Assembly: GCF_003991155.1 (NCBI RefSeq)
Contig: NZ_CP031295.1
Direction: 5' to 3' (one strand)
Length of the DNA stretch: 64,000 nucleotides
Source of the DNA: Escherichia coli
Lineage (GTDB): Bacteria > Pseudomonadota > Gammaproteobacteria > Enterobacterales > Enterobacteriaceae
Part shown: positions 29,778-31,649 of the stretch, in pieces
Layout: each line of letters opens with the position of its first letter
How positions within the stretch are numbered: position 1 is the first letter of the stretch
Position numbers and translations under genes: made by a program
Notes under the pieces: model-generated
The model's database searches: none
What the model was told of the DNA's origin: nothing
The model's input: the letters and a program-made list of their open reading frames with translations, nothing else

Positions 29778-30128
29778 ATGTTTACTGCATTCAATGAGAG
29801 AAATGATTTCAGTTATGCTTTTGAAAAAATCCGTAATGCGATTTCCGCGCCAGGAGAAAATAATCTTTATGCTGCAACAGAATTAGGTCTTGGCATTCTG
29901 CTCCGTAAATACGAGCAGTTTCGCCAGGAACTGGATGCGGCCGGTGAGCTGGGAAACTGGGAATATGATCTCGATACCTACAATCACTGTATTGCGGTGC
30001 TGCAACGTTACTTCACCGGCAATCCATCCGGGCTCACAGAACGTGATGCCCGGATTTACAGCCATTACCTGCAGACTGAGCACAAAGGCTTTGTGAAGCT
30101 GGCTGAAGAACTGGCTGCCGACCGCTGA
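29778..30128 (+). CDS. hypothetical protein (116 aa)
   Basis: ORF with GAGGAAAGG RBS-like sequence upstream. Confidence 0.4.
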   Translation: MFTAFNERNDFSYAFEKIRNAISAPGENNLYAATELGLGILLRKYEQFRQELDAAGELGNWEYDLDTYNHCIAVLQRYFTGNPSGLTERDARIYSHYLQTEHKGFVKLAEELAADR

Positions 30129-30171
30129 ATACATACAGAAGGCGGGATTTCTCAACAATAAAGGAATAAAC

Positions 30172-30861
30172 ATGGCTGACTGGTTTATTGCGACCGAAGG
30201 CGTGAAGGTGGTGAAGGACAGCGCCAGTCTGGGGCCGCAGATAATTACAGCTGTATCGACCATCGCATCTGCTGTCGGAGCGGTGTTCCTTACTCACCAC
30301 TTCACACTCAGACGTGAGGAGAGAACTGCAGCAGCGAAGCTGGCCAGCGAGCGTCTTTACATTAGTACAGAGCTGGTTTTTTTACTTGAGCGATTTGCGC
30401 AGCGTTGCGCTCCAGCAGCAACAGCAACTGTGGAGCACGATCAGGATGGCAGAGGAGAAGCTGAGTTCTTATTACCGGAAATCGATTATTCCCCGGTATC
30501 TGGTAACTGGCGCTCCCTTCCTTCTGGCCTGATGTATAGGCTCAGCGAACTCTCTGTTCTCAGCTACGAAGCTGTCGTGTGTGTAGATAATGTGTTTGTT
30601 GAAGATACTCCTTATGGTGGAGCGGGTGAATATAGTTTGCATAAAAACGCAGCTATGTTGGGAGTAAAAGCACTGCGGTTATCACGAGAACTGAGAATGT
30701 TATGTGGCCTCCCTCTGCACGGCCTTTCCGATACACTATCGCCAACGAGGTTGGTATTGTTGAAAGCCAGAGGTAAAACACTCCAAAAGGAGTACGAAAT
30801 GGTAAAGAAGTCTAAAAAGACCGAGCAAGAGATTGAGGATTTCATAAAGGGGACATCATGA
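30172..30861 (+). CDS. hypothetical protein with N-terminal hydrophobic segment (229 aa)
   Basis: Hydrophobic stretch IITAVSTIASAVGAVFL; 4-nt overlap with following recombinase gene. Confidence 0.4.
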   Translation: MADWFIATEGVKVVKDSASLGPQIITAVSTIASAVGAVFLTHHFTLRREERTAAAKLASERLYISTELVFLLERFAQRCAPAATATVEHDQDGRGEAEFLLPEIDYSPVSGNWRSLPSGLMYRLSELSVLSYEAVVCVDNVFVEDTPYGGAGEYSLHKNAAMLGVKALRLSRELRMLCGLPLHGLSDTLSPTRLVLLKARGKTLQKEYEMVKKSKKTEQEIEDFIKGTS

Positions 30862-31649
30862 GTGGCCCACAATTGCTTTCCCTGCCAGGTTCTTTTTTAA
30901 CGCCTCCGGCAACATTACCTGTTGCCATTGATTACCCGGCTGCGCTGGCACTACGTCAGATGGCACTTGTGCAGGACGAATTACCAAAATATCTGTTGGC
31001 GCCGGAGATCAGCGCCCTGCTCCACTATGTACCGGATCTGCACCGCAAAATGTTGCTGGCCACCCTGTGGAACACGGGCGCACGTATAAACGAAGCGCTG
31101 GCGCTGACGCGGGGAGATTTTTCTCTGGCGCCGCCATATCCGTTCGTACAGCTGGCCACGCTCAAACAACGGACTGAAAAAGCGACCAGAACGGCAGGCC
31201 GTGTCCCTGCTGGCAGTCAGGTGCATCGCCTGGTTCCCCTGTCCGATACACAATACGTCAGCCAACTGCAGATGATGGTGGCCACGCTGAAAATCCCACT
31301 GGAGCGCAGAAACAAACGAACCGGAAGAATGGAGAAGGCGCGCATCTGGGGAATCACCGACCGCACAGTTCGCACCTGGCTGAATGAAGCTGTAGAGGCC
31401 GCTGCGGCCGACGGCGTGACGTTCTCTGTTCCGGTTACCCCACATACTTTCCGCCATTCCTACGCGATGCATATGCTGTATGCTGGTATTCCGCTGAAGG
31501 TGCTGCAGAGCCTGATGGGGCACAAGTCGATTAGTTCGACAGAGGTGTACACGAAGGTGTTTGCGCTGGATGTGGCTGCACGGCACCGGGTGCAGTTTTC
31601 GATGCCTGAGTCCGATGCTGTCACAATGCTGAAAAACAGACACGCATAA
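30858..31649 (+). CDS. tyrosine site-specific recombinase (ResD/XerD-like paralog)
   Basis: 263 aa; catalytic region [44 protein letters not shown]; diverged paralog of resD at 37454. Confidence 0.75.
   Translation: MSGPQLLSLPGSFLTPPATLPVAIDYPAALALRQMALVQDELPKYLLAPEISALLHYVPDLHRKMLLATLWNTGARINEALALTRGDFSLAPPYPFVQLATLKQRTEKATRTAGRVPAGSQVHRLVPLSDTQYVSQLQMMVATLKIPLERRNKRTGRMEKARIWGITDRTVRTWLNEAVEAAAADGVTFSVPVTPHTFRHSYAMHMLYAGIPLKVLQSLMGHKSISSTEVYTKVFALDVAARHRVQFSMPESDAVTMLKNRHA

What the first reader, a model, noticed from the sequence alone, without database searches (positions are those of the whole stretch)
29778..31649. Three coupled genes ending in a second ResD-like tyrosine recombinase
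Two unrecognised ORFs (116 aa; 229 aa with an N-terminal hydrophobic segment) precede and overlap by 4 nt a tyrosine recombinase that is a diverged paralog of the canonical resD at 37454. A second resolvase-like recombinase with cargo genes could mark an integrative cassette or a dedicated inversion/resolution system.
Basis: inference. Interest (0 to 1): 0.45.

Follow-up and report, generated by a model that had tools for sequence, protein, structure and literature searches.

The report
ResD resolvase operon with swapped leader genes
These three genes are the plasmid's ordinary F-type dimer-resolving recombinase (ResD) and its site, but the two genes in front of it replace the classic ccdAB poison-antidote pair and sit in a slot that carries different unrelated gene pairs in related plasmids.

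Summary
The three ORFs exist as described: 116 aa, 229 aa with one N-terminal membrane helix, and a 263-aa tyrosine recombinase joined by an ATGA overlap. The 30858 recombinase is not a diverged second copy. It is the positional orthologue of F-plasmid ResD: 86% identical, all catalytic residues present, downstream of pifA-pifC and one rfsF-type site. The 37454 gene (49% identical) is the RepFIB-linked integrase. The window matches F up to the rfsF region. The two ORFs then occupy the place of ccdA-ccdB, and homology resumes inside resD. There is no second site and no flanking inverted repeat, so this is not an invertible or integrative cassette. Across about 50 ResD loci from Enterobacterales, a conserved ~100-bp rfsF block and a conserved resD (77-94%) bracket a variable interval. 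It holds about 37 unrelated ORF families, usually one small and one larger gene, which assort independently. Occupants include ccdAB, a HEPN-like protein and the ORF2 family, which matches the untested PADLOC candidate PDC-S67. ORF1 and the soluble part of ORF2 are generic four-helix bundles. Their function is unknown. My best guess is an addiction- or abortive-infection-type module co-transcribed with resD. Interest is moderate.

The parts
25918..28143 (-). pifA (KAP-family P-loop NTPase; the phage T7 exclusion gene of F). Context gene on the variable side of rfsF.
   Evidence: PF07693 E=3e-43. 98% nucleotide identity to the F plasmid over 24563-29645. Same position as in F. The pifA name and T7 exclusion role come from PMC8004404 and my own knowledge.
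28145..29236 (-). pifC (transcriptional repressor PifC), divergent from the ORF1-ORF2-resD unit.
   Evidence: Annotated as pifC in the near-identical plasmid and in F. 100% identical to F over 29000-29399.
29386..29413 (.). Conserved inverted repeat AGATCCGAAA / TTACGGATCT upstream of the core site. Possible accessory element; function inferred only.
   Evidence: Inverted repeat I4. GAGATCCGAAAA...CGGATCT is conserved in 7 of the 8 aligned ResD loci.
29448..29495 (.). Second conserved inverted repeat, CACAACATGTGGTATC / GACACTATATGTTGTG.
   Evidence: Inverted repeat I2. CACTATATGTTGTGTC is conserved in the alignment.
29557..29660 (+). rfsF-type core block, the presumed ResD recombination site. 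It contains two TTCCGGAAAGT repeats (29570-29580 and 29588-29598), AAGTCGGATC, TCCGGTAATTTA, and a conserved AT-rich end TATATGGCTACTTATTAT.
   Evidence: nhmmer profile hit at E=4e-28, the only hit in the window. 98-100% identical to ColIb-P9 over 29480-29639 and homologous to the F rfsF/oriV1 region. Repeats. The same block lies upstream of resD in 55 loci.
29667..29698 (+). Tandem 16-nt repeats TGTGAAATTCATTTTT / TGTGAAAGTCACTGTT in the ORF1-specific leader. Candidate operator (inference only).
   Evidence: Direct repeat D1. Retained in the ORF1-led locus L013; the region is also covered by the L100 match at 88% identity. The scan found no consensus sigma-70 promoter here.
29778..30128 (+). 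ORF1, 116 aa: acidic soluble four-helix bundle. This is family f2, one of many alternative first genes of the slot.
   Evidence: pLDDT 94.9; generic helical bundles only; 1606 plasmid records; pI 4.6-5.6.
30172..30861 (+). ORF2, 229 aa. A conserved 20-residue N-terminal tail, one transmembrane helix, and a four-helix bundle that is probably cytoplasmic. This is family f1 and matches the PADLOC candidate PDC-S67. The N-terminal ~85 residues are conserved; the C-terminal part is hypervariable.
   Evidence: E=1.2e-17; pLDDT 80.
30858..31649 (+). resD: F-type tyrosine recombinase (multimer resolvase) with a catalytic domain only and an intact active site.
   Evidence: PF00589. 86% identical to F ResD, with invariant R76/K103/H196/R199/H222/Y231. 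Aligns to XerD residues 95-283 only. Syntenic with F resD.
31692..31719 (.). GC-containing hairpin after resD. The scan reports it as a terminator-like site on the - strand. It probably marks the end of the unit.

Best explanation
The locus is the plasmid's F-type ResD/rfsF multimer-resolution operon in its normal place beside pifC-pifA. ResD acts on the single rfsF-type site at 29557-29660. When the plasmid dimerises there are two copies in direct repeat, and ResD resolves the dimer to monomers. That activity is known for F and is inferred here from 86% identity and an intact active site. The unusual part is the leader of the operon. Where F carries ccdA-ccdB, this plasmid carries ORF1 (an acidic four-helix bundle) and ORF2 (a single-pass membrane protein whose helical-bundle domain is probably cytoplasmic), tightly packed with resD and probably co-transcribed with it. 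The interval between the conserved rfsF block and the conserved resD gene is a cassette slot. Across Enterobacterales plasmids it holds dozens of unrelated, independently assorting genes, usually one small and one larger, apparently exchanged by recombination at the conserved flanks. My best inference is that ORF1/ORF2, like ccdAB, form a self-contained addiction- or abortive-infection-type module. ORF2 would be the membrane-acting effector and ORF1 its modulator. They would not be helpers of the recombinase, and their promoter would also supply resD. Shown: the gene structure, the orthology, the replacement of ccdAB and the variability of the slot. Inferred: the resolution activity, co-transcription, and any toxic or defensive function.
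For: Orthology and synteny. F has pifA<-pifC<-[579 bp] ccdA ccdB resD. The window is 98% identical to F over 24563-29645, then unrelated, then 80% identical inside resD at 30918-31634. ResD is 86% identical to F ResD and only 49% to the 37454 integrase, with the catalytic residues intact.
Site. There is one rfsF-type block with two TTCCGGAAAGT repeats. It is conserved upstream of resD in 55 loci.
Slot. Mechanical ORF calls between the block and resD fall into about 37 families in about 50 loci. Combinations include f2+f1 (the window), f2+f4, f2+f5, f3+f1, f7+f1, f11+f1, f7+f12 and ccdA+ccdB. hhalign finds no relation between the alternative families tested. Nucleotide breakpoints fall at 30141-30170, about 30400 and 30918.
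Toxin- or defence-like occupants. CcdB. A HEPN_RiboL-PSP-like family with an invariant Rx4H motif. DUF3223/HamC-like small proteins. ORF2 matches PDC-S67 at E=1e-17, and relatives at 1e-38.
Neighbourhood. Defence genes lie divergently upstream: pifA here, SMODS+S_4TM and Abi_2 in relatives.
Autonomy of ORF2. Distant members of the 982-cluster superfamily have no adjacent recombinase.
Precedent for leader-to-resolvase coupling. In pSLT, ccdAB and rsdB form one operon and CcdAB controls RsdB levels (PMC5065971).
Precedent for slot swapping. One IncR plasmid carries ccdAB upstream of resD instead of the usual sequence (PMC7707992).
Against: No experiment or characterised homologue assigns a function to ORF1 or ORF2. 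PDC-S67 is only a candidate, and a full-text search found no paper naming it. Its 'defence' label may simply reflect residence next to defence genes at this hot spot. ORF1 has no recognisable DNA-binding or antitoxin domain. Gene 1 and gene 2 assort independently. ORF2 proteins with 69-74% identical C-terminal domains sit behind three unrelated first genes, and ORF1 at 98% identity sits before a 35%-identical ORF2 variant in IncR plasmids. That is not what a tightly co-evolved toxin-antitoxin pair would show. The scan detected no promoter, so co-transcription rests on spacing alone. The ORF families come from mechanical ORF calls and a simple BLAST clustering, so the count of 37 is approximate.
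Confidence: 0.55

Rival explanations
1. ORF2, with or without ORF1, is an anti-phage defence system: the PDC-S67 candidate acting as a membrane-anchored abortive-infection effector. The hypervariable cytoplasmic bundle would sense phage components. The link to resD would be an accident of living in a recombination hot spot.
For: PADLOC PDC-S67 hit, stronger in relatives. The conserved N-terminal membrane part combined with a hypervariable C-terminal domain resembles an effector plus a diversifying sensor. Known or predicted defence genes lie immediately upstream in every lineage examined: pifA, SMODS/S_4TM, Abi_2. IncI1 literature places phage-exclusion genes next to rfsF (PMC8004404). Distant relatives stand alone in chromosomes.
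Against: PDC entries are candidates without a published test that I could find. dN/dS between close ORF2 pairs is low at 0.05-0.21, although this does not exclude episodic diversification. The strict adjacency to resD within Enterobacterales, 12 of 12 ORF2-anchored places, is not explained by defence.
Confidence: 0.25
2. ORF1 and ORF2 are accessory or regulatory factors of the ResD reaction. Examples would be a trans-acting DNA-binding partner for a recombinase that lacks a core-binding domain, a membrane tether, or a checkpoint that delays division until dimers are resolved.
For: ResD has only the catalytic domain. ORF1 gave a weak Phage_int_SAM_4 hit at E=0.026. ORF2-family genes at 40% identity or more are always directly upstream of resD, often with a 4-nt overlap. 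Leader genes control resolvase level in pSLT.
Confidence: 0.1
3. One reading: a second resolvase-like recombinase marking an integrative cassette or a dedicated inversion switch that moves or flips the two cargo genes.
For: An intact recombinase adjoins genes of unknown function. The cargo does differ between plasmids.
Against: There is only one rfsF-type site in 64 kb and no significant inverted or direct repeats bracketing 29.7-31.7 kb. The recombinase is the F ResD orthologue in its native context. Breakpoints between variants fall inside genes and at conserved flanks rather than at a site pair.
Confidence: 0.03

Closest known systems
F plasmid ccdA-ccdB-resD operon with rfsF (mini-F multimer resolution plus post-segregational killing)
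   Same: Same neighbours (pifA, pifC). Same rfsF-type site. ResD is 86% identical with the same active site. Same operon layout of two short leader genes packed against resD.
   Different: The leader genes are not ccdA/ccdB and have no detectable homology to them. ORF2 is a membrane protein, not a gyrase poison. About 130 bp of upstream leader sequence is also different.
IncR plasmid backbone resD region (vagCD | rfsF | two unnamed ORFs | resD)
   Same: ORF1 is 98% identical. Same three-gene order and the same 4-nt overlap with resD. Same rfsF block.
   Different: The second gene there is a 247-aa variant only about 35% identical to ORF2. The divergent neighbour is vapBC/vagCD rather than pifC. 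The IncR papers I read name only resD and do not discuss the two ORFs.
pSLT/pSDL2 ccdAB-PSLT029-PSLT030-rsdB operon of Salmonella virulence plasmids
   Same: A ResD-family resolvase is transcribed as the distal gene of a leader operon whose first genes control its level (PMC5065971).
   Different: That leader still contains ccdAB plus two further genes. I did not test homology of PSLT029/030 to ORF1/ORF2.
PADLOC PDC-S67 (single-gene phage defence candidate)
   Same: ORF2 matches the profile over residues 34-210 at E=1.2e-17. The wider family has 982 clusters of roughly 200-aa proteins.
   Different: It is a candidate only, with no known mechanism. The window protein is a divergent member carrying an extra conserved N-terminal tail, and it is always linked to resD.
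Variable defence or accessory hot spots flanked by conserved genes (for example the P2/P4 prophage hot spots), and the IncI1 'Delta/Col' gene-set switch at rfsF
   Same: Conserved flanks bracket unrelated, exchangeable cassettes. Exchange of gene sets at rfsF is documented for IncI1 and IncR plasmids.
   Different: The documented IncI1/IncR switch concerns the large region on the other side of rfsF. Here the variable interval is the short stretch between rfsF and resD, inside the resolvase operon itself.

Membership tests
F-type ResD/rfsF multimer resolution system | Tyrosine recombinase catalytic domain with the R-K-H-R-H-Y active-site residues | tested here: met
   PF00589 E=1.2e-18. R76, K103, H196, R199, H222 and Y231 are invariant in the ResD alignment. 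The conserved box residues align to XerD and to a XerC-like recombinase; the K103 assignment rests on its invariance in the alignment.
F-type ResD/rfsF multimer resolution system | Orthology to F ResD (close identity and conserved position next to pifC/oriV1) | tested here: met
   86% amino-acid identity to F ResD against 49% to the RepFIB-linked integrase. The window is collinear with F through pifA-pifC and the rfsF region.
F-type ResD/rfsF multimer resolution system | A cognate rfsF site in cis, in single copy per plasmid monomer | tested here: met
   One profile hit in the window, 29557-29660, at E=4e-28. It is homologous to the F and ColIb-P9 rfsF regions.
F-type ResD/rfsF multimer resolution system | Resolution of plasmid dimers at the site | not testable with these tools
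   Needs an in vivo or in vitro recombination assay.
Type II toxin-antitoxin module (ccdAB-like addiction system) | Sequence or fold homology to a known toxin or antitoxin family | tested here: not met
Type II toxin-antitoxin module (ccdAB-like addiction system) | Two small, adjacent, co-directional genes in one operon, occupying a locus where a bona fide toxin-antitoxin pair sits in relatives | tested here: met
   43-nt gap between the genes and a 4-nt overlap with resD. They replace ccdAB precisely.
Type II toxin-antitoxin module (ccdAB-like addiction system) | Cognate pairing: partners inherited and diverging together | tested here: not met
   First and second genes assort independently.
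Type II toxin-antitoxin module (ccdAB-like addiction system) | Toxicity of one product neutralised by the other | not testable with these tools
   Needs expression experiments.
PADLOC PDC-S67 phage defence candidate | Significant match to the PDC-S67 profile | tested here: met
   E=1.2e-17, residues 34-210 against profile positions 7-186 of 203. Relatives score 2e-38 and 6e-39.
PADLOC PDC-S67 phage defence candidate | Demonstrated protection against phage | not testable with these tools
   No paper in the searchable library mentions PDC-S67. PDC entries are described as candidates.
Integrative or invertible cassette (site - cargo - recombinase - site) | Two recombination sites, or inverted repeats, flanking the segment | tested here: not met
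   A single rfsF core in the window. Only short, chance-level repeats around 28.9-32.3 kb.
Stand-alone tyrosine-recombinase core-binding (SAM-like) domain, as a reading of ORF1 | Structural similarity to recombinase N-terminal core-binding domains | tested here: not met

The most novel reading that the evidence does not exclude
The short interval between the rfsF site and resD is a previously undescribed cassette-exchange hot spot shared by IncF, IncI1-like, IncR and other Enterobacterales plasmids and integrative elements. Dozens of unrelated one- to three-gene modules are swapped there, including ccdAB, HEPN-like RNases, PDC-S67-type membrane proteins and many unknowns. All are expressed as leaders of the resolvase operon. 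ORF1/ORF2 would then be one of several new families of plasmid addiction or abortive-infection modules. The physical coupling to the dimer-resolution site could be functional, for example expression that responds to ResD occupancy or dimer state, in the manner of the cer-Rcd checkpoint of ColE1.
Probability: 0.35. Interest if true: 0.65.

Novelty: new variant of a known kind. Interest (0 to 1): 0.45.

Why it matters
The recombinase itself is textbook plasmid biology. The useful result is the context. ccdAB, the founding plasmid addiction system, turns out to be only one of many alternative occupants of a fixed position in front of resD. In a species-dereplicated sample of 34 loci the ORF2 family was more common there (9 loci) than ccdB (5 loci). 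The ORF1-ORF2-resD arrangement is part of the backbone of more than a thousand clinical IncR and IncF resistance and virulence plasmids, yet the two genes have never been named or tested. If they are addiction or defence modules, they affect plasmid persistence and phage susceptibility of clinical Enterobacterales. The conserved flanks also give a simple way to mine new toxin, antitoxin and defence genes.

Tried and rejected

2. A flanking second site or inverted repeats. None was found.

3. A simple crossover at the rfsF core as the F/non-F junction. This is only partly true. Identity to F already drops at about 29400, and the block 29480-29639 is ColIb-P9-like. I therefore do not claim a site-specific crossover point.

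4. Distant homology between the alternative slot families (f1 against f4 and f12; f2 against f3). hhalign probabilities were below 1%.

5. Co-variation of the ORF2 C-terminal domain with the partner family. None was seen.

6. Structured RNA in 28-33 kb. There was no Rfam match at E<=0.1.

7. Phage origin, suggested by the PHROG hits. The phage collection has no DNA match and one weak protein hit.

8. Promoter scan. No consensus sigma-70 site lies upstream of ORF1. I noticed a possible extended -10 (TGGTAAAAT, about 29738-29746) by eye, and it is unverified.

9. Literature. No paper on PDC-S67 and none found describing the rfsF-resD interval as a hot spot.

10. Fold search against afdb50 was unavailable.

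11. A truncated ORF2 in an IncR hybrid plasmid proved to be an IS26 deletion that removed ORF1 as well, so it says nothing about toxicity.
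Full report
**Observation**

- The ORF2 stop and the recombinase start share ATGA.
- ORF1 and ORF2 are 43 nt apart.
- Each start codon follows a Shine-Dalgarno-like motif.
- ORF2 has a single hydrophobic helix near residues 21-43.
- The third protein is a PF00589 tyrosine recombinase (E=1.2e-18) and is 49% identical to the recombinase at 37454.

All three are genuine genes.
- Pairwise dN/dS is 0.09-0.35 for ORF1, 0.05-0.21 for ORF2 and 0.09-0.16 for ResD.
- AlphaFold models are confident, with pLDDT 94.9 and 80.0.
- The exact segment occurs in more than 300 plasmid records.

**What the window is**

The window is an IncF (FIB/FIC) ColBM/ColV-type E. coli plasmid, as shown by a near-identical plasmid record.
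- Upstream and divergent lie pifC (28145-29236) and pifA (25918-28143, KAP NTPase).
- Downstream lie cmi, cma, cbi, cvi and an IS1.
- Beyond those sit the second recombinase (37454) and RepFIB repA (38479-39456).

**Which recombinase is 'the' ResD**

The F plasmid has pifA<-pifC<-[579 bp]->ccdA-ccdB-resD.
- The window is 98% identical to F from 24563 to 29645. It then loses all similarity and regains it at 80% only inside the recombinase gene, 30918-31634.
- The 30858 protein is 86% identical to F ResD and 86% to ColIb-P9 ResD. The 37454 protein is only 49% identical.
- The catalytic residues R76, K103, H196, R199, H222 and Y231 are all present. The conserved box residues align with XerD and a XerC-like recombinase.
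- ResD aligns only with the catalytic half of XerD, residues 95-283. It is therefore a short, catalytic-domain-only recombinase.

The finding contains the canonical ResD, and the gene at 37454 is the diverged RepFIB-linked integrase.

**The site**

Alignment of the regions upstream of ResD-linked genes from F, ColIb-P9 and five other lineages shows a conserved block of about 280 bp. In the window it contains:
- the inverted repeat AGATCCGAAA/TTACGGATCT (29386-29413);
- a second inverted repeat (29448-29495);
- a core at 29557-29660, with two TTCCGGAAAGT repeats 18 bp apart, AAGTCGGATC, TCCGGTAATTTA and an AT-rich end.

A profile of the 106-bp core finds exactly one copy in the window (E=4e-28). 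It finds one copy upstream of resD, on the same strand, in 55 loci. These include nearly every locus whose recombinase is at least 74% identical to ResD and has enough upstream DNA (one, L055, gave no hit). The profile found no copy beside the 43-54% identical integrases.

The literature identifies rfsF as the ResD target in F-like, IncI1 and IncR plasmids. It also reports exchange of gene sets at rfsF (PMC4398462, PMC8004404, PMC9412624).

With a single site and no flanking repeats, the system can resolve dimers. It cannot invert or excise the two ORFs.

The junction with F is not a clean crossover at the core.
- Identity to F is 100% up to 29399 and about 82% over 29400-29520, and it is lost after about 29585.
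- The stretch 29480-29639 is 98-100% identical to ColIb-P9.

**The two leader genes**

ORF1:
- It is an acidic protein (pI 4.6-5.6 across the family).
- It is predicted with very high confidence to be an up-down four-helix bundle.
- The family is confined to Enterobacterales, with at least 54% identity apart from two short fragments. It occurs in 1606 plasmid records, 1452 of them at 95-99% identity.

ORF2:
- Positive charges follow the membrane helix, so I infer that the bundle is cytoplasmic.
- It matches the PADLOC profile PDC-S67 (E=1.2e-17; relatives 1e-38). This is an untested 'phage defence candidate' that no paper in the library mentions.
- A profile search finds 982 clusters (at 50% identity) in the superfamily.

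**A variable slot inside the resolvase operon**

ORF2 homologues at 40-60% identity from Citrobacter, Pectobacterium, Serratia, Atlantibacter and an unnamed enterobacterium all lie directly upstream of a ResD-like gene. This held in 12 of 12 places examined. The small gene in front of them belongs to different families.

ORF1 homologues are followed by unrelated second genes: 202 aa in pJJ1887-like E. coli plasmids and 257 aa in Pantoea.

I then collected 79 loci around ResD relatives from one genome per species and listed the + strand ORFs between the rfsF block and resD.
- They cluster into about 37 families in about 50 loci.
- The usual layout is one gene of 95-140 aa followed by one of 180-300 aa.
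- Observed combinations include f2+f1 (the window and Hafnia), f2+f4, f2+f5, f3+f1, f7+f1, f11+f1, f22+f1, f7+f4, f7+f12, f13+f5 and f18+f5.
- They also include f10+f6, which is ccdA+ccdB (F, Klebsiella, Pantoea).
- Profile comparison shows the alternative families tested are unrelated.
- ResD itself stays 77-94% identical throughout.

In the 34 loci that came from the unbiased ResD-anchored sample:

| Occupant of the slot | Loci (of 34) |
|---|---|
| ORF2 family (f1) | 9 |
| ccdB (f6) | 5 |
| f5 (HEPN-like) | 4 |
| f9 | 4 |
| f4 | 3 |
| f12 | 3 |
| ORF1 family (f2) | 3 |

At the nucleotide level the window is a mosaic.

| Window segment | Content | Best similarity |
|---|---|---|
| 29469-30170 | rfsF block and ORF1 | 88% to an IncR plasmid |
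| 30141-30400 | ORF1/ORF2 junction and ORF2 codons 1-76 | 73-85% to four other lineages |
| 30400-30917 | rest of ORF2 and first 20 resD codons | unique |
| 30918-31634 | resD | 75-83% to all |

The IncR backbone carries vapBC | rfsF | ORF1 (98%) | a 247-aa ORF2 variant (about 35%) | resD, with the same 4-nt overlap. One IncR plasmid is reported to have ccdAB upstream of resD instead (PMC7707992).

**What the cassette probably does**

Several occupants of the slot carry toxin- or defence-type signatures.
- CcdB is one of them.
- Family f5 matches the whole HEPN_RiboL-PSP profile just below threshold and has an invariant R-x4-H motif.
- Family f7 resembles DUF3223/HamC.
- The ORF2 family is PDC-S67.

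The region divergently upstream is filled with phage-exclusion or defence genes in every lineage: pifA here, SMODS+S_4TM and Abi_2 elsewhere.

Distant ORF2 relatives occur without any recombinase. The conserved ResD and site also coexist with unrelated leaders. ORF1 and ORF2 are therefore very unlikely to be cofactors of the recombinase.

In pSLT the leader ccdAB and the resolvase rsdB form one transcript, and CcdAB sets the RsdB level (PMC5065971). That gives a precedent for functional coupling through transcription.

My best inference is that ORF1/ORF2 form a self-contained addiction- or abortive-infection-type module that also drives resD expression.

The main evidence against a classical toxin-antitoxin pair is independent assortment.
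- ORF2 proteins with 69-74% identical C-terminal domains follow three unrelated first genes.
- The N-terminal 85 residues of ORF2 are 70-85% identical across several variants, while the rest is 22-35% identical.
- ORF1 has no antitoxin-type DNA-binding fold.

A pure anti-phage role, as the PDC-S67 label suggests, is the strongest rival.

**Comparison with the known, and novelty**

The ResD/rfsF part is already known and ordinary. Exchange of large gene sets on the far side of rfsF is documented for IncI1 and IncR plasmids. I could not find a description of the interval inside the operon, between rfsF and resD, as a variable cassette position, nor any study of ORF1 or ORF2. The library does not cover subscription journals. 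I therefore rate the finding as a new variant of a known kind: a ccdAB-resD-type operon with a different, uncharacterised leader cassette. Interest is moderate.

**Limits**
- The ORF families rest on mechanical ORF calls and BLAST clustering. For example, the annotated 137-aa ColIb-P9 leader gene was mis-split by my filter.
- The promoter is not identified.
- No complex prediction or experiment was possible.

Noticed in passing
window 31646-31681: A near-perfect 36-bp palindrome, ATAAGTCACAAATCATAATTAT / ATAATTATGAATTGTGATTTAT, starts at the resD stop codon. It overlaps the only promoter-like site found by the scan (31637-31664), upstream of cmi. It looks like an operator for the colicin M immunity/colicin region. 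The regulator was not identified.
   Followed up: no
window 37454-38194 (and 38479-39456): The second tyrosine recombinase (246 aa, 49% identical to ResD) sits next to RepFIB repA. The rfsF profile gave no hit beside it, nor beside the 43-54% identical relatives in other genomes (L061-L090). Its own site and role are unknown.
   Followed up: partly
window 25918-29236; L001 6660-10844: pifA is intact here (741 aa), as it is in F. In the otherwise near-identical plasmid pCREC-544_1, an IS100 (IS21 family) splits it into two partial ORFs.
   Followed up: no
window 35133-36044: A 67-aa ORF beginning MRTLTLNELDSVSGG looks like the N-terminal part of the colicin V precursor (my recognition, not tested). 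It runs straight into an IS1 copy (insA/insB-like ORFs 35347-36044), so cvaC appears truncated. The cvi immunity gene (34919-35155) is retained.
   Followed up: no
window 5000-12000 and 18000-20000: There are strong composition shifts: 59-66% GC over about 5-12 kb and 34-38% GC over 18-20 kb, against about 50% elsewhere. This suggests inserted foreign segments such as a transposon or integron.
   Followed up: no
L017 5414-6187; L026, L027, L030, L040 (family f5): A 257-294-aa family occupies the second position of the rfsF-resD slot. It has an invariant R-x4-H motif (RNDLVHRNG) and sub-threshold full-length matches to HEPN_RiboL-PSP. It is a likely new HEPN RNase subgroup, paired with three different small first genes.
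   Followed up: partly
L101 (Atlantibacter hermannii chromosome CP042941, 497-508 kb): An ORF2 homologue plus a ResD-like integrase lie in a chromosome next to formate-dehydrogenase-type genes, which suggests an integrated remnant of the plasmid module. The rfsF block was not checked there.
   Followed up: no
L006/L007 (Pectobacterium, next to TraG/TraU genes), L021, L029, L050: A third small gene (family f8, 111-133 aa) is sometimes inserted between the second slot gene and resD, so the slot can hold three or four genes. In Pectobacterium the whole unit lies beside conjugative-transfer genes in a 756-kb contig, possibly an integrative conjugative element.
   Followed up: no
L104-L111 (metagenomic contigs): Distant members of the ORF2/PDC-S67 superfamily (about 203 aa, E around 1e-23) occur without a recombinase. 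They are often paired with another small ORF: 99 aa upstream in L110/L111, 196 aa downstream in L104.
   Followed up: partly
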